Origin: Bacteroidales bacterium
Lineage (GTDB): Bacteria > Bacteroidota > Bacteroidia > Bacteroidales > VadinHA17
Assembly (NCBI GenBank): GCA_016715075.1
Contig: JADKBK010000005.1
Location: forward strand, 20,541-84,540
DNA: 64,000 bases
Direction of reading: 5' to 3'
This document shows positions 5,321 to 53,478 of this stretch, piece by piece. The position numbers and the translations under genes were made by a program. Within the stretch, counting starts at the first letter, position 1; each line of letters starts with the position of its first letter. Below the pieces are notes generated by a model that was given only the letters and a program-made list of their open reading frames with translations, ran no database searches and was not told the origin of the DNA.

Positions 5321-5465
5321 GCAGTTGAAAAAGTCCTCTGTGGAACTCTGTGATACCTCTGTGCTCTCTGTGTAAGTTTTTAATTTTTAGTTACACAGAG
5401 ATCCACAGAGAATTCACAGAGGCACACAGAGAAAGACAGTTAGAAGCTGCAACTTTTTCAACAGC
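5321..5465. repeat. Composite palindromic element, 4x CTCTGTG facing 4x CACAGAG
   Basis: CTCTGTG at 5336, 5346, 5357, 5366. CACAGAG at 5394, 5404, 5415, 5425. Outer inverted pair gcagttgaaaaagt / actttttcaacagc. A sister copy lies at 22580-22724. Confidence 0.8.
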
Positions 5466-8374: not shown

Positions 8375-9640
8375 ATGAGTTCACTTAATAATGAATTAAA
8401 ACAGTACCACGGTTATTTCAGTAAAGAACTACATGACGACATACTTCCTTACTGGATGAAATACGGAGTTGAAAAAAACGGACATGGATTTTACGGAGCT
8501 GTTGATCTGAACGGGAATCCGGTGCTTACTGCTAATAAAACAAGTGTCCTGAATGCAAGGATCTTATGGACATTTTCTGCTGCAGCCATGCTGGAAGGAA
8601 ATGGAGAGTATGCCACTGTTGCAGACAAAGCATATAAAGTAGTTACTGAAGGTGTTGAAGATAAGGTGTTTGGCGGTTATTACATGGAACTGTCATCAGA
8701 TAATAAACTGGCGAACGATATTAAGCATACTTATGCCCAGGCTTTTGTAATATATTCACTCTGCAAATATTATGAGTTCCGACCGCTTGATTCTGTCATG
8801 AAGAAGATCAGGGCATTTTTTGCCCTGCTTGAGGAGAAGGCTAAAGATCCTGCGAATGCAGGTTACAGGGAATCATTTACCCGCGACTGGAAAATTTATG
8901 GTGAAAACAGGATGGCGGACAATAATGAGCCAAAATCAATGAATACACATCTGCATGTTCTGGAAGCCTGGGCAGCTCTCTATAAAGTCTGGAAGGACCC
9001 GCTTGTTGAAAAAAGACTCACTGAAATGATGAATCTGTTTCTTGACAGGATAATTCGTAAGTCAGGTCACTTTGGGATCTTCTTCGATGAAGGTTTCAAT
9101 GAGGCTGCTTCCTCAAAGGGAATATGTTCATTCGGACATGATATTGAAGGTTCATGGTTATTGTGGGAAGCTGCGGAGATATTGGGCAATAAGGAGATAA
9201 TTGAAAAGATGAAGCCTGTGGCTGTAAAAATGGTTGATAATATTGAGAGGGTGGCAGTTGACAAGGACGGCGGTCTTTTTCTGGAGTCAACCCGTTTCGG
9301 AAGCCATGTTAAGACAAATAAGCACTGGTGGCAACAGGCAGAGACGCTTGTAGGTTTTATGAACGCCTTTGAGCTGGCCGGTAATTTAAAGTACTGGAAT
9401 ACTGTAAAGCAGAGTTGGAGTTTTATTGATACCTGCCTCATTGATCACGAAAGAGGTGAATGGTTTACGAAGCTGAACCGTCTCGGTGTTCCATTTCTTA
9501 CAGAACCGGAGGATGATCCGTCACCATACTACAGGAATGACTGGAAAATTGATCCCTGGAAATGTCCATATCACAACGGCAGGGCAATGATGGAGATGAT
9601 GAAGAGAATTGATTTAATGTTGAAAAATCTTCAATTATGA
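8375..9640 (+). CDS. AGE-family epimerase/isomerase (N-acylglucosamine 2-epimerase / cellobiose 2-epimerase / mannose isomerase family)
   Basis: Blocks ILPYWMKYGVEKNGHGFYG, NARILWTFSAA, HDIEGSWLLWEA and YHNGRAMMEM are typical of the (alpha/alpha)6 AGE fold. The stop overlaps the next start (ATGA at 9637-9640). Confidence 0.8.
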   Translation: MSSLNNELKQYHGYFSKELHDDILPYWMKYGVEKNGHGFYGAVDLNGNPVLTANKTSVLNARILWTFSAAAMLEGNGEYATVADKAYKVVTEGVEDKVFGGYYMELSSDNKLANDIKHTYAQAFVIYSLCKYYEFRPLDSVMKKIRAFFALLEEKAKDPANAGYRESFTRDWKIYGENRMADNNEPKSMNTHLHVLEAWAALYKVWKDPLVEKRLTEMMNLFLDRIIRKSGHFGIFFDEGFNEAASSKGICSFGHDIEGSWLLWEAAEILGNKEIIEKMKPVAVKMVDNIERVAVDKDGGLFLESTRFGSHVKTNKHWWQQAETLVGFMNAFELAGNLKYWNTVKQSWSFIDTCLIDHERGEWFTKLNRLGVPFLTEPEDDPSPYYRNDWKIDPWKCPYHNGRAMMEMMKRIDLMLKNLQL

Positions 9641-10539
9641 CATCAGGGGAACGTGTTCTGACTGCTTTAAGAGGCGGTACCCCCGACAGGGTTCCGGTTT
9701 GGGAGTATCTGTTCAGTCTGAAGCTGATGAAGGAGGTGATGGGTTATACCACAGAACTTTATGATGGCACAACTCAGACAAAAATGGCCGCCAGAATGGG
9801 GCTCGATGTTATCTGGGCGCCTATAAACGGTTTTTGTGGCATCGAAGATGTCCCGCACGCTCTGAATGAGTTATATCTTGATGAATGGGGTGTTACATAC
9901 CAGAAGAATGGCTGGCCTATAATTGCTCAGATCAGCACTGCAGTAAAGACAAGGGAAGACTGGCTTCAGTACAAAATACCAGAGGTGAATACTCCGGGAA
10001 GGCTTAAGATCCTGAAGGATGTGATTAAGGCAAACGATTCAGATCTGGCCGTTGCAGCCGGCCTGTTGGGTCCGTTTACAATGATGTCATGGTATCTCAT
10101 GGATTTTGAGACCCTGTCTATGGCAATATTTATGGATCCTGATCTGGTACACGAAATGACAGATGCTTTTGTAACATGGGCATTGGAAGCTGCAGCGCTC
10201 GCATATCAGACCGGTGGTGTTGATGCATTTCATATCTCTGATGACTGGGGAGGCACAGGCGGTTTACTGATCTCACCCGACCATTTCAGGGAGTTTTTTC
10301 TTAAGCCTTTTGAAAGACTTGTATCGGGACTTAAATCTTATGGTGTGCCGGTAATTATGCACAATGACGGCAATTTATGGGAGATACTTGATGATCTGGT
10401 CGGTACAGGTATTGATGCTTACCATCCTGTGGAAAGGGCGGCTACAATGGATCTTGTCACTGTAAAGCAAAAGTATAGTGGGAGGATCTGCCCGATTGGA
10501 AACGTGAATGCACCTTGCACCTTGCACCTTGAACCTTGA
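9637..10539 (+). CDS. URO-D/MtaA-family protein, paralogue 1, C-terminally truncated (possible pseudogene)
   Basis: N-terminus GERVLTALRGGTPDRVPVW and core ISDDWGGTGGLLISPDHFREF fit the uroporphyrinogen decarboxylase-like fold. It aligns with 13896..14918 up to PIGNVN. The last 11 codons then read into the heptamer array, so about 50 C-terminal residues are missing. It has HND where the intact paralogue has HIC. Confidence 0.6.
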   Translation: MTSGERVLTALRGGTPDRVPVWEYLFSLKLMKEVMGYTTELYDGTTQTKMAARMGLDVIWAPINGFCGIEDVPHALNELYLDEWGVTYQKNGWPIIAQISTAVKTREDWLQYKIPEVNTPGRLKILKDVIKANDSDLAVAAGLLGPFTMMSWYLMDFETLSMAIFMDPDLVHEMTDAFVTWALEAAALAYQTGGVDAFHISDDWGGTGGLLISPDHFREFFLKPFERLVSGLKSYGVPVIMHNDGNLWEILDDLVGTGIDAYHPVERAATMDLVTVKQKYSGRICPIGNVNAPCTLHLEP

Positions 10540-10586
10540 ACCTTGAACCTTGAACCTTGAACCTTGAACCCTAACCCCTAACCCCC
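10510..10586. repeat. Heptamer tandem array (3x GCACCTT, 5x GAACCTT, 3 degenerate AACCCYN units)
   Basis: Read directly; period 7. It overlaps the 3-prime end of the truncated URO-D ORF and ends 8 nt before the MFS start codon. Confidence 0.9.
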
Positions 10587-10594
10587 GATCCCTC

Positions 10595-11947
10595 ATGAAC
10601 AAAGTCCTTATACAATGTACAATTGCTTCCGCCCTTGGCGGGTTGTTGTTTGGCTACGATACCGTGATCATTAACGGTGCAATGCTCGATCTGGTAAAGC
10701 ATTTTAACCTGACACCAGCTATCCAGGGCTGGACGGTCAGTTCGGCGCTTGTTGGCTGCATACTTGGAACAATACTGATGGGCAAGCCGGGTGATATATT
10801 TGGAGCTCAGAGATTATTGCAGCTGCTTGCAGTACTGTTTCTTATTTCTGCAGTTGGATGTGGTCTGGCTCCTACTATCAGTGTTTTCATTCTTTTCAGG
10901 TTTATCGGCGGTCTGGCCATAGGAGGTGCATCCGTCATCTGTCCTGTTTATATTTCGGAAATATCTCCGCCGAAACACAGGGGATTGCTTGCTTCAACAT
11001 TTCAGCTCGCAATAGTATTTGGGATATTGTTATCACTTATATCCAACTACCTGCTTCTCAATATCGGAGAAAATAACTGGCGTTGGATGCTTTTCAGCGG
11101 CGCATTGCCTGCCGTGGCATTTTTTGTTATGCTTTTCTTTATCAGGAAAAGTCCGCGCTGGCTGGTGAAAAAAGGCAGGATAGAAGAGGCAAGAAAGAAT
11201 ATTGAAGATCTTTCATCTCATGAAATAGATACTGAACAAACCTTATCGGAAATCAGGGAATCAATAAATATTGAGGATGCAGGAAAAAAAATAAACCTAT
11301 TTAAGAAGCCTTACAGGAAGATTGTCTGGCTAGGGATATTTGTTGGTATTTTTAGTCAGCTTACCGGAATAGGAGTTGTCTTCTATTACTCAGCTCAGAT
11401 TTTCAGTATTGCAGGTTTTTCTCCCGATACCTCCATGCTTCAAAGTGTGATACTAGGTTTGACCAACCTGGTCTTCACATTGATCGCAATGCTTCTCATT
11501 GACAGGGTAGGAAGAAAGAAACTGTTAATAATTGGACAGCTTGGAATGGTGGCTGTGCTGGGATTGTTCGGATACGGATTACTCTCGGGAAATATTACAG
11601 GTTACTGGCTTGTTGTACTGCTGGTTGCGTATATAGCTTTCTTCGCTGCTTCAATGGGGGTGGTGATCTGGGTCATGTTATCTGAAATGTTTCCGAATAT
11701 TATCAGGGCCAGGGGTGCTTCACTCGGGTCATTTGCGAACTGGGGAGTAAGTGCCTCTCTAAACTTCCTCTTTCCGCAGGTAGTCGGATTATTCGGAACA
11801 ACACTGGCTCAGCAGCAGATGGGCATGAGCTATGCTTTCCTGTTTCTCGCCGGGATGACACTCTTAGGATTCTTCTTCCTGAAGAACAAGATTATCGAAA
11901 CCAAAGGGAAATCACTGGAACAGATTGAAAAAGAGGTTCTTTGTTAA
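10595..11947 (+). CDS. MFS sugar porter family transporter
   Basis: GGLLFGYDTVIINGA, RKSPRWLVKKGR (the PESPRWL-like sugar porter signature), IDRVGRKKLL, and about 12 hydrophobic segments. Confidence 0.85.
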   Translation: MNKVLIQCTIASALGGLLFGYDTVIINGAMLDLVKHFNLTPAIQGWTVSSALVGCILGTILMGKPGDIFGAQRLLQLLAVLFLISAVGCGLAPTISVFILFRFIGGLAIGGASVICPVYISEISPPKHRGLLASTFQLAIVFGILLSLISNYLLLNIGENNWRWMLFSGALPAVAFFVMLFFIRKSPRWLVKKGRIEEARKNIEDLSSHEIDTEQTLSEIRESINIEDAGKKINLFKKPYRKIVWLGIFVGIFSQLTGIGVVFYYSAQIFSIAGFSPDTSMLQSVILGLTNLVFTLIAMLLIDRVGRKKLLIIGQLGMVAVLGLFGYGLLSGNITGYWLVVLLVAYIAFFAASMGVVIWVMLSEMFPNIIRARGASLGSFANWGVSASLNFLFPQVVGLFGTTLAQQQMGMSYAFLFLAGMTLLGFFFLKNKIIETKGKSLEQIEKEVLC

Positions 11948-11978
11948 TGCTAAATGAATAAATGCTAAATGCTTAATA
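11944..11978. repeat. Left arm of the four-helix-bundle cassette: 5 boxes T(T/A)AATG
   Basis: Boxes at 11944, 11951, 11959, 11966 and 11973, spaced 7-8 nt. They approximate the reverse complement (TTAATGG) of the CCATTAA array on the other side of the gene. Confidence 0.6.
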
Positions 11979-12051
11979 GAATATTTTATATGTTTTTAAG
12001 GTGAAGTATTAAATACTAATTATCTAATATTATTTATTTAATTATTTTGGT

Positions 12052-12414
12052 ATGAAAGAGAATATTCTAAAGACAAAATCTTATGCATTTGCATTAAATG
12101 TCATTAAACTTTATCAGAAGCTTTCTTCAGAAAAAAAAGAATTTGTCCTTTCAAAGCAAATACTCAGATCAGGTACTTCCATAGGTGCCAACATTGAGGA
12201 AGCTAATCAGGCTGAATCTAAACGAGATTTTATACATAAGCTTGGTATTGCACAAAAGGAGGCTAATGAGACACATTACTGGATTCGATTATTGACAGAT
12301 AGTAATTATATCGTTCAAAGTGTTTCCATAATCTTAAAGGATGATTGTGAGGAATTAATCAAATTGATAACATCATCCATTAAGACCGCAAAAAACAACC
12401 TTGATAATGCTTAA
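12052..12414 (+). CDS. Four-helix-bundle protein (23S rRNA intervening-sequence protein family)
   Basis: 120 aa. SYAFALNVIKLYQKL...ILRSGTSIGANIEEA...SKRDFIHKLGIAQKEANETHYWIRLL is the classic signature of this family. Confidence 0.85.
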   Translation: MKENILKTKSYAFALNVIKLYQKLSSEKKEFVLSKQILRSGTSIGANIEEANQAESKRDFIHKLGIAQKEANETHYWIRLLTDSNYIVQSVSIILKDDCEELIKLITSSIKTAKNNLDNA

Positions 12415-12431
12415 TGAAATAGTGCTGAATT

Positions 12432-12634
12432 CATTAACCATTAACCATTAACCATTAACCATTAACCATTAACCATTAACCATTAACCATTAACCATTAA
12501 CCATTAACCATTAACCATTAACCATTAACCATTAACCATTAACCATTAACCATTAACCATTAACCATTAACCATTAACCATTAACCATTAACCATTAACC
12601 ATTAACCATTAACCATTAACCATTAACCATTAAA
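12432..12634. repeat. Perfect tandem array, 29 x CCATTAA
   Basis: 203 nt with period 7. I could see no interruption across four sequence lines. Confidence 0.95.
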
Positions 12635-12645
12635 ACAAATTACCA

Positions 12646-13720
12646 AAACTAACGGGAGAGATACTTACAATTCTGGCAGGAAAAGGTCAGGGACCAGTTT
12701 GGCGGGTAGCTGTCGGATTACTGGGCTAACTCCCTTATCAAAAGAGGCCTTAAACCGAAGAATTTTATTCTTTCGGATGAGTATATCCAGTGGCACCGTG
12801 ACGGGGCCGCTCACCCCTTATACATTTTCTCTGGCTGTGAGGTAAAAGAATGGTATGAAGGTCATCGTCATTACAAAGAAATAGTTACACCCTGCGGTTC
12901 GGTAAGAGAATGCTGGGAATTCATCCCTACATCATTTTCTGATGCCCCTGTTGAACACTTCATGAAATCGGAAGCGGATATACCGATAATGAAGTTTATA
13001 TATGAAAATACAAGTTTTGAACCTGATTATGACCAGGCATATCTCAGAAAGAAACAGGTGGGTGAACAGGGCCTTGTCCTCTGTTACCTTCCTAAAAGCC
13101 CGTTTATGCATCTGCTGGCTCTTGAAGCTGGGGTCATGACAGTTACAATGGCTGCACTTACTGCCCCTGAAGAGTTTAAAGACCTTCTTGATACAATGAA
13201 AAAGGCCTTTGATCAGGCTGCCAGGATTGCTGTTGATAGTCCGGCTGAAGTACTTATGATCCCGGAGAACCTTTCCTCGGAAATGGTAGGCCCTGAACTG
13301 TTTGAGTTGTATATGTCAGGTTATCAGAAGGAATGGACAAAAAAGATCAGTGAAGCCGGTAAATACTCATTTATACATATTGATGGTACACTTGCCGGTT
13401 TACTGAAAGAGGAAGCCGCAGTAGGATTTACAGTACTTGAAGCCCTTACACCTGATCCGGTTGGAGATATGAAGTGGGAAGATCTTGAGTCATTTACCGG
13501 TGATTCGAAAAGTATCCTCTGGGGAGGCATCCCGGGTTCTTATTTTACTGATTGTGTAAGTGATGATGAATTTGACAGACATGTTAAATACCTGCTGGAG
13601 ATCATGGTCAGCAAACCCCGCTTTGTGCTTGGTGTTGCCGACCAGGTGCCTCCCGATGGATTGGAGCGCCGTGTAAAACGTGTTTCAGAACTTGTAAATA
13701 AATATGGATTTTATCATTAA
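12646..13720 (+). pseudogene. URO-D/MtaA-family protein, paralogue 2, start codon missing and frameshifted near 12715
   Basis: Frame 1 (12634-12729) reads NKLPKLTGEILTILAGKGQGPVWRVAVG with no ATG/GTG/TTG and begins directly after the heptamer array. Homology continues in frame 2 (DYWANSLIKRGL...) into the ORF-track ORF 12962..13720. Removing one G of GG 12715-12716 joins the frames. IHIDG and GVADQVPP replace the HxC...C motif. Confidence 0.55.
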
Positions 13721-13730
13721 TTTTAATTGC

Positions 13731-13810
13731 CACAAAGGCACAAAGGCATAAAGGCATAAAGGCACAAAGGCGCAAAGGCACAAAGGCACAAAGGCATAAA
13801 GGCATAAAAC
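13731..13810. repeat. Octamer tandem array, 10 x CA(C/T)AAAGG
   Basis: Read directly. It is followed by three approximate inverse boxes (TTGATG / CTTGATG / CCTTGATGG) at 13829-13854. Confidence 0.9.
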
Positions 13811-13895
13811 AACACAAGGGTTGTATTATTTGATGGGACTTGATGCCTTGATGGCTGAATAAATAAGAAAGTAATTATTTAAAAAAGAATGAATT

Positions 13896-20511: not shown

Positions 20512-20530
20512 CTGTTTTTTTGCTAAAAAA

Positions 20531-20616
20531 CTACGGAGTTACGCGGAGTTATTACAGAGTTCCACTGTTTAGGCCTCCGTGTTTTACTCCGTGCAACACT
20601 GTGCAACTCCGTGGTT
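20531..20616. repeat. Palindromic box element, opposite polarity (3x NCGGAG/ACAGAG facing 4x CTCCGTG/CACTGTG)
   Basis: ctacggag, acgcggag and ttacagag on the left. ctccgtg, ctccgtg, cactgtg and ctccgtgg on the right. Ends in GTGGTTTTA. Confidence 0.7.
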
Positions 20617-22579: not shown

Positions 22580-22724
22580 CTCTGTGAAACTCTGTGCTCC
22601 CGATAGTCATCGGGACTCTGTGATCTCTGTGTAAGTTCTTAGCTTAATATTACACAGAGAGCACAGAGAATACACGGAGTAACACAGAGATAGCTGCAGT
22701 TGCAGAATCGAATTTCTCAACAGC
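22580..22724. repeat. Composite palindromic element, sister of 5321-5465
   Basis: CTCTGTG at 22580, 22590, 22616, 22625. CACAGAG/CACGGAG at 22653, 22662, 22673, 22683. Nested hairpin cccgat/atcggg at 22599-22614. Tail tagctgcag...atttctcaacagc. Confidence 0.8.
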
Positions 22725-46372: not shown

Positions 46373-46515
46373 TTTGGTTTCGTTTGATTCATACTACAAA
46401 ATCCGTAAGAGTAAATTTAGTGATTTCTGCCGGTTTGGAATTGGAAGAAACTCCGGAATATATCAGAATTGAAATGTATCTGAATTGTTAAATTTTCGGG
46501 CATGAACTTTTATTT

Positions 46516-46586
46516 TACCATGGATTACTCGGAGATTTTTTTTACCACGGATTACATGGAGGACACGGAGTAAGCACGGAAAAAAA
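46516..46586. repeat. Left arm of the GxxExxY cassette (CGGAG/CACGGA boxes)
   Basis: ttaccatggattactcggag and tttaccacggattacatggaggacacggagtaagcacgga. accacggatta (46544-46554) is the exact reverse complement of taatccgtggt (46816-46826). Confidence 0.7.
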
Positions 46587-46658
46587 CCCTGAATCAATTT
46601 ATGCCCGGAAAAATAAAAAATCGTAATTCTATTAGTCGTCTCGCTAAAAACTAATAAT

Positions 46659-46797
46659 ATGGAACTACTGTACAGGGAATGAACTGGTACAATCGTGGAC
46701 TGTGCTGTTAACGTTCATAGATTTTTAGGGCCCGGGCTTCTGGAATCAGCGTATGAAGAGTGACTTCAATATAAGTTATACGAATATGTATTAAAAA
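46659..46797 (+). pseudogene. Remnant of a GxxExxY-family protein gene (N-terminal ~45 codons, two in-frame TGA)
   Basis: MELLYRE*TGTIVDCAVNVHRFLGPGLLESAYEE*LQYKLYEYVLK contains the family-defining G-LL-E-SA-Y motif. The ~80 C-terminal residues are absent and the reading frame runs into the right repeat arm. Confidence 0.65.
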
Positions 46798-46798
46798 C

Positions 46799-46840
46799 TT
46801 TCCGTGCTCTCCGTGTAATCCGTGGTTAAATAAAAGAATT
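46799..46840. repeat. Right arm plus conserved tail of the GxxExxY cassette
   Basis: ttccgtg, ctctccgtg, taatccgtggttaaataaaagaatt. The tail is near-identical to ccagtggctaaataaaagaat at 61707-61727. Confidence 0.7.
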
Positions 46841-53372: not shown

Positions 53373-53396
53373 GAAGTTTTGGAGGATTTGAGAGAA

Positions 53397-53478
53397 GAGA
53401 TATGAGATATGAGATGAGTGAGATGAGATATGAGATATGAGATATGAGATATGAGATGTGAGATGTGAGATGTGAGGG
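53397..53478. repeat. Heptamer tandem array, about 12 x GAGAT(A/G)T with two irregular units
   Basis: Read directly. It is followed by a single inverse unit (gatatctcc, 53478-53486). It lies between the GH29 stop and the CDF start. Confidence 0.9.

What the first reader, a model, noticed from the sequence alone, without database searches (positions are those of the whole stretch)
11944..12634. Four-helix-bundle gene sits in the loop of an inverted short-box cassette
The 120-aa four-helix-bundle protein gene (12052-12414) is flanked on both sides by box arrays. On the left are five T(T/A)AATG boxes (11944-11978), overlapping the MFS stop codon. On the right are 29 perfect CCATTAA units (12432-12634).

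TTAATGG is the reverse complement of CCATTAA, so the gene lies between inverted box arrays. This is the same architecture as the empty palindromes at 5321 and 22580 and the GxxExxY cassette at 46516.

It is established that this family was first found inside rRNA intervening sequences, that is, as a passenger of an inserted element. My inference is that the box arrays are the ends of a small insertion cassette whose cargo is this gene. No recombinase is visible, so the mobility mechanism is unknown.
Basis: partly seen in the sequence, partly recalled or inferred. Interest (0 to 1): 0.65.

Follow-up and report, generated by a model that had tools for sequence, protein, structure and literature searches.

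The report
Small gene enclosed by inverted heptamer arms
A 120-residue four-helix-bundle gene and the inverted 7-base repeat arrays on either side of it form one insertable unit, built like the protein-coding intervening sequences of 23S rRNA but sitting between two genes of a sugar operon; the same layout surrounds most relatives of this gene in three bacterial phyla.

Summary
The gene at 12052-12414 is a PF05635/TIGR02436 four-helix-bundle (FHB, "S23p") gene. Five T(T/A)AAT(G/A) boxes lie upstream, over the MFS stop codon. Downstream lie TCATTAA plus 28 perfect CCATTAA units.

- More left-type boxes directly follow the FHB stop codon, so the gene is also flanked by a direct repeat.
- The long right array is a lineage-specific expansion: 10, 19, 28 and 42 perfect units in four assemblies.
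- In this copy the arms pair only weakly.

The cassette reading is supported. In 79 FHB loci from Bacteroidota, Acidobacteriota and Campylobacterota, 68 have locus-specific inverted arms, against 3 of 178 control ORFs. The arms are about 31 nt of period-7 TGRWWAN boxes and abut the start and stop codons. Close relatives have an empty MFS|URO-D junction without FHB and without these boxes. The loci fall into at least 28 genomic contexts, and FHB dN/dS is 0.04-0.11.

The layout matches the Coxiella 23S rRNA intervening sequence: S23p ORF in the loop, a 28-bp terminal stem, variable heptamers, RNase III excision. I read it as an IVS-type element lodged in an operon. RNA processing and the way it moves are inferred, not shown.

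The parts
10595..11947 (+). Host flank: sugar-porter MFS transporter gene. Its stop codon TAA (11945-11947) lies inside the first left-arm box.
   Evidence: PF00083 E 5e-104, TIGR00879; sequence.
11941..11978 (+). Left arm: five T(T/A)AAT(G/A) boxes at spacings of 7/8/7/7 nt (TTAATGC, TAAATGA, TAAATGC, TAAATGC, TTAATAG).
   Evidence: By my hand alignment of the sequences shown, 34 of 39 bases are identical to the L093 orthologue, although dS of the adjacent gene is 1.46. Complementary to the right array beyond chance.
11979..12051 (+). AT-rich spacer between the left arm and the FHB start codon. It is lineage-specific: the corresponding gap is only 8 nt in L013 (the same lineage as L093), and the family median is 7 nt.
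   Evidence: No enrichment of sigma-70-like promoters.
12052..12414 (+). Four-helix-bundle (23S rRNA IVS protein / S23p) gene, 120 aa, predicted pI 8.9, under purifying selection.
   Evidence: dN/dS 0.04-0.11 against orthologues.
12401..12431 (+). Left-type boxes in the same orientation as the left arm, covering the last FHB codons, the stop codon and 17 nt beyond. They are a direct repeat of the left arm. Relatives L001/L002 have a longer version followed by a 36-nt unique loop.
   Evidence: (D2, 80% over 30 nt).
12431..12634 (+). Right arm: TCATTAA plus 28 perfect CCATTAA units, in inverted orientation to the left boxes. In relatives it runs up to the start codon of the next gene.
   Evidence: Perfect CCATTAA counts are 10 (L002), 19 (L001), 42 (L005) and at least 17 up to the contig end (L006). 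L093 has 18 GCATTAA plus 4 CCATTAA.
12635..13720 (+). Host flank: URO-D-like (MtaA/CmuA-type) gene, 367 aa in relatives. In the window it has no start codon and is frameshifted in two garbled patches.

Best explanation
The FHB gene and its flanking heptamer boxes are one unit: a gene-in-a-hairpin element of the same kind as the S23p-encoding intervening sequences (IVS) of 23S rRNA. Here it is lodged between two cistrons of a sugar-utilisation operon instead of in an rRNA helix.

Shown:
- In this FHB clade the ORF is enclosed by terminal inverted repeats of about 31 nt, made of four to five 7-nt TGRWWAN boxes. The repeats end about 7 nt before the ATG and start about 3 nt after the stop.
- The unit fills the whole gap between two co-oriented genes.
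- Arms and gene are present or absent together in close relatives.
- The box type follows the FHB phylogeny.
- The 82 loci analysed fall into at least 28 genomic contexts in three phyla.
- The protein is under strong purifying selection.
- In the window's lineage the right arm has been amplified (10 to 42 perfect units between assemblies), most simply by replication slippage, which also produces other heptamer arrays in this genome. The amplified variant (CCATTAA rather than GCATTAA) mismatches the left boxes, so the closing stem of this particular copy is weak.

Inferred:
- The element has no promoter of its own and is transcribed by read-through of the operon.
- The arms pair in the transcript and enclose the ORF. 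As shown experimentally for the Coxiella rRNA IVS, the stem is a substrate for RNase III, which would release or insulate the FHB message while leaving the flanking cistrons usable.
- Recombination between the left-type boxes on both sides of the gene can delete the cargo and leave an empty box palindrome.
- The FHB protein, a relative of the RNA-binding DGR factor Avd, probably acts on the element's own repeats.
- How new copies are inserted is unknown.
For: Architecture in the window.

Conserved and covarying in diverged orthologous loci:
- L093/L008 (FHB 82% identical): TTAATGC-type left boxes with (GCATTAA)n on the right.
- L010 (76% identical): (GGTTAAT)x4 on the left with CCATTAA/GCATTCA on the right.
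- Predicted duplex energies are -31.9 and -35.2 kcal/mol, z -6.4 and -4.9.

Family-wide:
- 68 of 79 loci have inverted flanks above the 99th percentile of shuffles. The median score is 17.5, against 8.5 when paired with another locus's flank and 7.5 when shuffled.
- Control ORFs: 3 of 178.
- Arm geometry: median arm 31 nt, gaps of 7 and 3 nt.
- Where the flanks are periodic the period is always 7, and the box logo is TG[A/G][T/A][A/T]A.
- 66 of 75 genes are co-oriented with both neighbours, with median gaps of 35 and 42 nt.
- The whole L016 element folds with a roughly 31-bp closing stem, z -4.9.

Unit gain or loss: the junction is empty in L094/L095/L098 and L097.

Mobility over time: at least 28 contexts; box type tracks the FHB tree.

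Selection: dN/dS 0.04-0.11.

No sigma-70-like promoter excess and no intrinsic terminator between the MFS gene and the URO-D-like gene.

Known parallel (PMC4990558): the Coxiella IVS is 428 nt, carries the S23p ORF in the loop, has a 28-bp terminal inverted-repeat stem, and is excised by RNase III, as shown in vitro with cut sites mapped by 5'- and 3'-RACE. It has three to four tandem heptamers (GACAGAT) before the ORF, and their number differs between strains. Summing the medians with a roughly 357-nt ORF gives about 430 nt for the elements found here.
Against: - In the window copy itself the closing stem is marginal. The predicted duplex is -19.6 kcal/mol, built of 4-6 bp helices with mismatches. 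The whole-element fold has z -1.8, and its centroid has no closing stem.
- The test for selection at the RNA level is weak. Among stem mismatches, sense-strand G-U-compatible ones number 85, against 58 A-C (p 0.03), and most mismatches (254) are transversions. Concerted evolution of the arms at the DNA level could explain the complementarity.
- No expression or processing data exist for any operon-borne copy.
- In Coxiella the ORF is decaying and apparently not translated, whereas here it is strongly conserved, so the biology may differ.
- 11 of 79 loci show no significant arms.
- No target-site duplication or mobility enzyme was found.
Confidence: 0.6

Rival explanations
1. A mobile cassette that works at the DNA level. 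The arms are terminal inverted repeats or hairpin-forming recombination sites. An enzyme encoded elsewhere recognises them, as with a MITE carrying cargo, a REP/RAYT-like system or an attC-like site. Any RNA pairing is incidental.
For: - Arms and gene are gained and lost as a block.
- At least 28 contexts.
- Box type follows the gene tree.
- The order of box variants is mirrored between the arms, as in true terminal inverted repeats.
- The unrelated GxxExxY (PD-(D/E)XK nuclease family) genes carry a conserved terminal inverted repeat, GAACGCRGATGACGCRGATT, at unrelated sites such as nuoJ|nuoK.
- Mismatch types give only weak support for RNA-level selection.
Against: - No transposase, integrase or reverse transcriptase among the genes called within 10 kb either side.
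- I saw no target-site duplication by eye in the flanks printed.
- Co-orientation with both neighbours in 66 of 75 loci, and placement exactly between stop and start codons, fit dependence on the host transcript better than free DNA transposition.
- The arm sequence differs between lineages, which is awkward for a single sequence-specific transposase.
Confidence: 0.22
2. A domesticated regulator with its operator arrays. FHB is a resident protein of the operon that binds the heptamer boxes, as DNA or RNA, on both sides of its gene. It controls itself and the URO-D-like gene downstream.
For: - Strong purifying selection.
- In this lineage FHB always sits directly upstream of a URO-D-like gene, even where the upstream neighbour differs: MFS, GH38 or the epimerase.
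- By my hand alignment the left arm is 34/39 identical between lineages whose synonymous sites are saturated.
- The box core TGRWWA is shared across lineages.
- The homologue Avd binds nucleic acid in DGRs (own knowledge; the homology is noted in PMC10053308).
Against: - The same clade of elements sits in at least 28 functionally unrelated contexts, such as etfB|etfA, a PRTase|truA junction and the formiminotransferase junction.
- L094, L097 and related loci keep the operon without it.
- This reading is not exclusive of the main explanation.
Confidence: 0.12
3. Coincidence of generic slippage arrays. This genome fills intergenic gaps with heptamer arrays, and the FHB gene merely happens to lie between two of them.
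For: - Arrays without cargo lie at 10512-10585, 13731-13808 and 53385-53476.
- AACCTTG and AACCATT units are 5/7 identical.
- Empty junctions in relatives are also built of heptamer boxes.
- Copy number is hypervariable.
This reading probably does explain the expansion to 28 units.
Against: - The left-right complementarity and the direct repeat are far beyond the window background.
- The TTAATG-type boxes occur only where FHB is present.
- Inverted arms surround FHB in taxa that have no such arrays elsewhere (68 of 79 loci against 3 of 178 controls).
Confidence: 0.05

Closest known systems
S23p-encoding intervening sequences (IVS) of 23S rRNA (Coxiella burnetii, Leptospira; PMC4990558)
   Same: Same protein family in the loop. 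Same overall size (about 430 nt against 428 nt). Terminal inverted repeats form a roughly 28-31 bp stem around the ORF. Tandem heptamer repeats precede the ORF, and their number varies between strains. The ORF is in the sense orientation of the host transcript. The IVS has long been suspected to be a selfish or mobile element with no identified mobility enzyme.
   Different: The host site is an intercistronic spacer of protein-coding operons, not helix 25 or 45 of 23S rRNA. Rfam finds no rRNA in the window or in 20 related loci. The ORF is under strong purifying selection here, whereas it is decaying and untranslated in Coxiella. RNase III excision has not been tested for these copies. In the window the right arm is expanded to 28 units and the stem is weak.
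Avd, the accessory protein of diversity-generating retroelements (DGR)
   Same: Homologous four-helix-bundle fold and family (PF05635, with PF22296 co-hits; homology noted in PMC10053308). Basic protein.
   Different: No reverse transcriptase among the Pfam assignments of the genes called within 10 kb either side. Template and variable repeats were not searched for. The gene stands alone between metabolic genes.
Co-transcribed terminal-inverted-repeat elements such as Neisseria Correia elements, ERIC and other MITEs (own knowledge)
   Same: Short elements bounded by terminal inverted repeats, sitting in intergenic or intercistronic positions. They are transcribed with the neighbouring genes and form hairpins. 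Correia elements are cut by RNase III. Gene-less versions exist here too, as box palindromes.
   Different: Those elements carry no ORF. Their terminal repeats are unique sequences, not arrays of 7-nt boxes. They have target-site duplications, which I did not see here.
STRR heptanucleotide repeats of heterocystous cyanobacteria (own knowledge)
   Same: Tandem 7-nt units in intergenic regions, hypervariable in copy number.
   Different: STRR are described as dispersed direct arrays, not as inverted arms around a specific gene family. The host phylum is different.
Integron gene cassettes with attC sites (own knowledge)
   Same: A small promoterless ORF joined to an imperfect inverted-repeat site and expressed from an upstream promoter.
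   Different: No integrase. These are single insertions inside ordinary operons rather than cassette arrays, and the repeats lie on both sides of the gene.

Membership tests
PF05635 / TIGR02436 four-helix-bundle (23S rRNA IVS protein, S23p) family | Significant match to the family profiles over the full length | tested here: met
   PF05635 E 2e-29 (residues 4-107 of 120; profile positions 3-105 of 106). TIGR02436 E 8e-33, 112.9 bits against a cut-off of 24. PDB 2rld E 3e-35.
23S rRNA intervening sequence (IVS) element | Located inside a 23S rRNA gene (helix 25 or 45) | tested here: not met
   The element lies between an MFS gene and a URO-D-like gene. No Rfam family, rRNA included, matches in the window or in 20 related loci.
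23S rRNA intervening sequence (IVS) element | Terminal inverted repeats that form a long stem enclosing the ORF | tested here: inconclusive
   Met in relatives: L016 has a roughly 31-bp stem, z -4.9; L093 and L010 duplexes are -32 and -35 kcal/mol; 68 of 79 loci qualify. Weak in the window copy: -19.6 kcal/mol, whole-element z -1.8, and no closing stem in the centroid.
23S rRNA intervening sequence (IVS) element | Tandem heptamer repeats next to the ORF, varying in number between strains (described for Coxiella) | tested here: met
   Period-7 boxes on both sides. 10, 19, 28 and 42 perfect units in four assemblies. The Coxiella description is in PMC4990558.
23S rRNA intervening sequence (IVS) element | Excision from the host transcript by RNase III | not testable with these tools
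   Needs RNA-seq or RACE in wild type and an rnc mutant.
Diversity-generating retroelement (Avd component) | Adjacent reverse transcriptase and template/variable repeat pair | tested here: not met
   The genes called within 10 kb either side are GH38, GlcNAc 2-epimerase, URO-D, MFS, melibiase, GH123 and a 3-keto-disaccharide hydrolase, plus several with no Pfam hit. None is a reverse transcriptase. Template and variable repeats were not searched for.
Transposon or MITE bounded by terminal inverted repeats | Terminal inverted repeats plus a target-site duplication, with a transposase in cis or in trans | tested here: inconclusive
   Inverted arms are present. I saw no target-site duplication by eye in the flanks printed. 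No transposase within 10 kb either side. A trans-acting enzyme cannot be excluded.
Integron cassette | An attC site and an integron integrase, with cassettes in an array | tested here: not met
   Each FHB unit examined stands singly between ordinary operon genes, and no integrase-family Pfam hit appears among the called neighbours.

The most novel reading that the evidence does not exclude
FHB elements and GxxExxY elements are two branches of a widespread, undescribed class of hairpin-loop gene cassettes that encode no recombinase. Each is a small ORF enclosed by inverted arrays of short boxes that are the cargo protein's own recognition sites. They insert between cistrons (and, for FHB, into rRNA helices), ride on host transcription and are processed out as RNA. 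When they decay they leave the gene-less box palindromes that litter these genomes, giving a route to REP-like repeats. The window would then show the whole series: an intact cargo (12052), a decaying cargo (46509-46830) and empty palindromes (5336, 20530, 22580).
Probability: 0.3. Interest if true: 0.85.

Novelty: new variant of a known kind. Interest (0 to 1): 0.7.

Why it matters
PF05635 is a very large family: my search returned 7,997 proteins at E <= 1e-5 among the 8,000 candidates scored. Its function is unknown. Outside DGRs it is known mainly from a 30-year-old puzzle, the ORF-bearing intervening sequences of 23S rRNA.

If the operon-borne copies are the same hairpin-enclosed element, the rRNA IVS becomes a special case of a general intercistronic element. 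Its biology then becomes testable in cultivable Bacteroidota:
- Does RNase III cut the arms?
- Does FHB bind the heptamer boxes?
- How is the unit gained and lost?

There are practical consequences too:
- It would explain why FHB and GxxExxY genes turn up inside cas, nuo, etf and other operons (PMC3936711 reports one between cmr3 and cmr2).
- Their flanks break short-read assemblies: contigs L006 and L007 end inside the array.
- Spurious low-complexity ORFs are called on the arrays; for example the 69-aa ORF at 13608-13817 reads through the CACAAAGG array.

My searches of the held literature found no description of this architecture outside rRNA. I cannot exclude that it is described in papers not held.

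Tried and rejected
- Rfam at gathering thresholds on the window and on 20 FHB loci gave no match, so no curated RNA family covers the arms and none of those loci is an rRNA IVS.
- The sigma-70 promoter and intrinsic-terminator scan of 11700-12900 gave promoter counts at shuffle level and no terminators. The scan does not cover Bacteroidota-type promoters, so it only weakly supports read-through.
- The G-U versus A-C mismatch asymmetry, meant to separate RNA-level from DNA-level constraint, gave 85 against 58 (p 0.03). That is too weak to decide.
- Folding the whole window element gave no convincing closing stem, so the RNA-stem model rests on the relatives, not on this copy.
- A viral-contig scan with a GxxExxY protein found nothing.
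- The literature search on STRR and 'S23 ribosomal protein' was swamped by unrelated acronyms. Searches on GxxExxY/PDDEXK_3 and on PF05635 found only incidental mentions.
- I first suspected that the right array was just one of the genome's generic intergenic heptamer arrays and the left 'array' chance. Searches overturned that for the arms, although generic slippage remains the best account of the expansion to 28 units.
- I considered a DGR context and an integron context and rejected both on gene content.
Full report
**What is in the window**

The ORF at 12052-12414 (+) encodes a 120-aa protein. It matches PF05635 (23S rRNA intervening sequence protein, E 2e-29), TIGR02436 'four helix bundle protein' (E 8e-33) and the solved structure 2rld (E 3e-35).

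It lies between a sugar-porter MFS gene (10595-11947) and a URO-D/MtaA-like gene. The surrounding locus encodes GH38, GlcNAc 2-epimerase, melibiase and GH123.

Downstream of the gene lie TCATTAA plus 28 perfect CCATTAA units (12431-12633); TRF reports 28.9 copies at 100%. Upstream, starting on the MFS stop codon, are five boxes: TTAATGC, TAAATGA, TAAATGC, TAAATGC and TTAATAG.

The left boxes are imperfect reverse complements of the right unit, with 5-6 of 7 bases matching. The relation is still far beyond the window background: the Smith-Waterman score is 14. Only two neighbouring, overlapping windows out of 12,612 others reach it, both in the ACCTTGA array and in direct orientation, and none of 2,580 AT-rich windows does.

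The left arm is directly repeated across the FHB stop codon: 11941-11970 against 12401-12430, 24 of 30 bases, with a background maximum of 20. The true layout is therefore left boxes, gene, left boxes, right array.

**Strain comparison**

Two assemblies named 'Bacteroidales bacterium' (GCA_016709425.1 and GCA_964268325.1) are 98-99% identical to the window over 20 kb. In both, the FHB stop is followed by six to seven left-type boxes, a 36-nt unique loop, and a more degenerate right array that runs up to the ATG of an intact 367-aa URO-D-like gene.

Perfect CCATTAA counts are 10, 19, 28 (window) and 42, the last in a 93%-identical lineage. Two short-read contigs end inside the array.

The window lacks the loop and the start of the URO-D gene. 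It also has two garbled patches in an otherwise identical alignment, and a 253-nt deletion at another array. All three anomalies touch tandem arrays. I cannot tell real repeat-mediated rearrangement from assembly error.

**Diverged orthologues show that the arms belong to the gene**

- In a lineage with 82% identical FHB (L008/L013/L093), the left boxes are of the TTAATGC type and the right array is (GCATTAA)n.
- In a lineage with 76% identity (L010), FHB sits behind a GH38 gene. The left arm is (GGTTAAT)x4, and the right array mixes CCATTAA with GCATTCA. The post-stop boxes include GTGAATG, the complement of CATTCAC.

The last FHB codons and the stop codon are themselves a box: GAT AAT GCT TAA in one lineage, AAT AAT GGT TAA in the other. 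Left and right therefore covary between lineages. Predicted arm duplexes are -31.9 and -35.2 kcal/mol (z -6.4 and -4.9), against -19.6 (z -4.2) in the window.

By my hand alignment of the sequences, the left arm is 34/39 identical between the window and L093, although dS of the adjacent gene is 1.46. FHB itself has dN/dS of 0.04-0.11.

**Family-wide test**

A scan of one genome per species with the FHB protein returned 80 loci at 54-82% identity, from Bacteroidota, Acidobacteriota (Pyrinomonadaceae) and Campylobacterota. The loci were chosen on protein similarity alone.

- 68 of 79 have 120-nt flanks that are inverted repeats above the 99th percentile of shuffles. The median score is 17.5, against 8.5 when the downstream flank of another locus is substituted and 7.5 when it is shuffled. 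Only 12 exceed the threshold in direct orientation.
- Of 178 other ORFs in the same loci, 3 exceed it.
- The arms have a median length of 31 nt. They end 7 nt before the ATG and begin 3 nt after the stop.
- Where the flanks are periodic the period is always 7: 23 and 28 of 79 arms, against 1 of 315 control segments. The boxes share a loose core, TG[A/G][T/A][A/T]A.
- 66 of 75 genes are co-oriented with both neighbours, at median gaps of 35 and 42 nt, so the arms fill the intercistronic space.
- Box types differ by lineage (TGGTAAA, TGATAAT, TGGACAA, TGAGAAT, TGGTTAA, TGAATTG, TGAAAAG and others), follow the FHB tree, and appear in mirrored order in the two arms.
- The 82 loci analysed fall into at least 28 distinct genomic contexts, for example etfB|etfA, a PRTase|truA junction and the junction before a formiminotransferase gene.
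- A complete element (L016) folds with a roughly 31-bp closing stem around the ORF, z -4.9.

**Empty sites**

A metagenome scan with the MFS protein found five close relatives of the operon, with MFS 84-87% identical and URO-D 82-86% identical.

- In four of them (L094, L095, L098, L097) the MFS stop is followed after 68-90 nt by the URO-D start. There is no FHB and there are no TTAATG/CATTAA boxes; the short spacer is built of unrelated heptamers.
- In L096 the site holds a different insert of about 500 nt that looks like a MITE.

On the MFS tree the empty L094 is sister to the filled L093, with the window outside them. Either the whole unit was lost in L094 or it was gained twice at the same junction. 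In both cases gene and arms go together.

L093 also has a gene-less TTAATG/CATTAA palindrome one gene downstream. That is exactly where the L010/L014 lineage carries FHB. This is what recombination between the left-type boxes flanking the gene would leave behind.

**The known parallel**

Warrier et al. (PMC4990558) describe the Coxiella burnetii 23S rRNA intervening sequence as a 428-nt selfish element.

- The S23p ORF lies in the loop of a stem-loop closed by a 28-bp terminal inverted repeat.
- Three to four tandem heptamers (GACAGAT) lie just upstream of the ORF, and their number differs between strains.
- The paper also cites the older proposal that the IVS is a mobile element whose ORF serves mobility.

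Summing the medians measured here (31 + 7 + about 357 + 3 + 31) gives about 430 nt.

The operon-borne units thus share protein family, size, terminal stem, heptamer composition and sense orientation with the rRNA IVS. The host site differs. No rRNA is present, so the element is not an rRNA IVS in the strict sense.

**How it most likely works**

Shown: the architecture, its specificity for this gene family, block-wise presence or absence, many insertion contexts, purifying selection, and copy-number instability of the arm.

Inferred:
- The unit is transcribed by read-through. There is no room for a promoter in most loci, and no sigma-70-like promoter excess or terminator in the window; Bacteroidota promoters were not modelled.
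- The arms pair in the transcript, and RNase III processes the stem as it does in rRNA.
- FHB acts on its own repeats, by analogy with its DGR homologue Avd.

Weak points:
- The pairing in the window copy is marginal.
- The excess of G-U-compatible mismatches is small (85 against 58).
- Complementarity could be kept up by DNA-level processes.
- No insertion mechanism is visible. There is no transposase, integrase or reverse transcriptase within 10 kb either side, and I saw no target duplication.

**The expansion in this lineage**

The genome also carries cargo-free heptamer and octamer arrays directly upstream of other start codons, at 10512-10585, 13731-13808 and 53385-53476. Relatives have still others.

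General slippage acting on the right arm best explains the 10-42 units. The amplified CCATTAA variant, a minority unit in L093, mismatches the TTAATGC-type left boxes. That is why this copy pairs poorly.

**The second cargo family**

- The window's 46683-46796 is a truncated GxxExxY gene (TIGR04256 positions 3-36, E 1e-9) between inverted CACGGAG-type boxes.
- Full GxxExxY genes elsewhere are flanked by a conserved inverted repeat, GAACGCRGATGACGCRGATT. This holds at unrelated sites: nuoJ|nuoK, beside a tRNA gene, and amidohydrolase|CN-hydrolase.
- L090 carries a GxxExxY unit and an FHB unit on either side of one gene.
- The gene-less CTCYGTG/CACRGAG palindromes at 5336, 20530 and 22580 look like the same structures without cargo.

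**Novelty**

My searches of the held literature found the family mentioned as an rRNA IVS ORF, as an Avd relative and as an occasional resident of cas loci. PMC3936711 notes one between cmr3 and cmr2. None describes inverted heptamer arms around operon-borne copies.

I therefore rate this a new variant of a known kind, the IVS-type S23p element outside rRNA. The description may exist in literature that is not held.

Noticed in passing
window 10509-10510 (compare L002 8206-8458): 253 nt present in the near-identical strain are missing. The gap removes the last ~55 codons of the URO-D-like gene at 9637-10539 and the (TAATCAG)n and (CACCCAG)n arrays. The junction falls inside the CACCTTG/AACCTTG array.
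   Followed up: partly
window 12635-12720 and 12815-12850: Two dense patches of substitutions and indels in an alignment to L002 that is otherwise 100% identical. The 367-aa URO-D-like gene loses its start codon and reading frame. Together with the deletion above, all anomalies sit next to tandem arrays, so they may be real rearrangements or assembly errors.
   Followed up: partly
window 10512-10585, 13731-13808, 53385-53476: Direct tandem arrays with no gene in them, lying in the gaps just upstream of gene starts: ACCTTGA x8.4 plus CCCTAAC x2.4; CACAAAGG x9.8; GATATGA x13. The first two, like the CCATTAA array, are C/A-rich on the sense strand. AACCTTG and AACCATT units share 5 of 7 bases. 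Relatives carry other unit types at the same junctions.
   Followed up: partly
window 13731-13853: The CACAAAGG array is followed, after a short spacer, by inverted CCTTGATG boxes. This is another palindrome with lopsided arms and no gene, lying between the two URO-D-like genes.
   Followed up: no
window 5336-5431, 20530-20615, 22580-22690: Gene-less inverted-box palindromes of the CTCYGTG/CACRGAG type, with three to four boxes per arm and short loops.
   Followed up: partly
window 46509-46830: A truncated, frameshifted GxxExxY gene (TIGR04256 positions 3-36) in the loop between inverted CACGGAG-type boxes. It looks like a decaying cargo.
   Followed up: yes
L187 1160-1645; L173 1180-1650; L177 1060-1640; L090 1510-2060: Full GxxExxY genes at unrelated sites share a conserved inverted terminal repeat, GAACGCRGATGACGCRGATT. 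The sites are nuoJ|nuoK, beside a tRNA gene, and amidohydrolase|CN-hydrolase. In L187 and L090 the right repeat lies inside the last codons of the ORF.
   Followed up: partly
L090 1636-2058 and 3001-3354: One CN-hydrolase gene is flanked by a GxxExxY unit upstream and an FHB unit downstream, each with its own box type.
   Followed up: no
L096 3440-3900: A different insert of about 500 nt, with GC-rich hairpins and terminal inverted repeats, occupies the same MFS|URO-D junction that holds FHB in the window. The junction seems to be a repeated landing site.
   Followed up: no
L093 6050-6100: A gene-less TTAATG/CATTAA palindrome lies between the two URO-D-like genes, at the position where L010 and L014 carry the FHB gene.
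   Followed up: partly
L036, L041, L043, L051 (Tannerella / Bacteroides), upstream of FHB: Long left arms of eight or more GTGAAAA/GTGAAGA boxes show that arm expansion is not confined to the window's lineage. Tannerella forsythia ATCC 43037 is cultivable, so it is a candidate for experiments.
   Followed up: no
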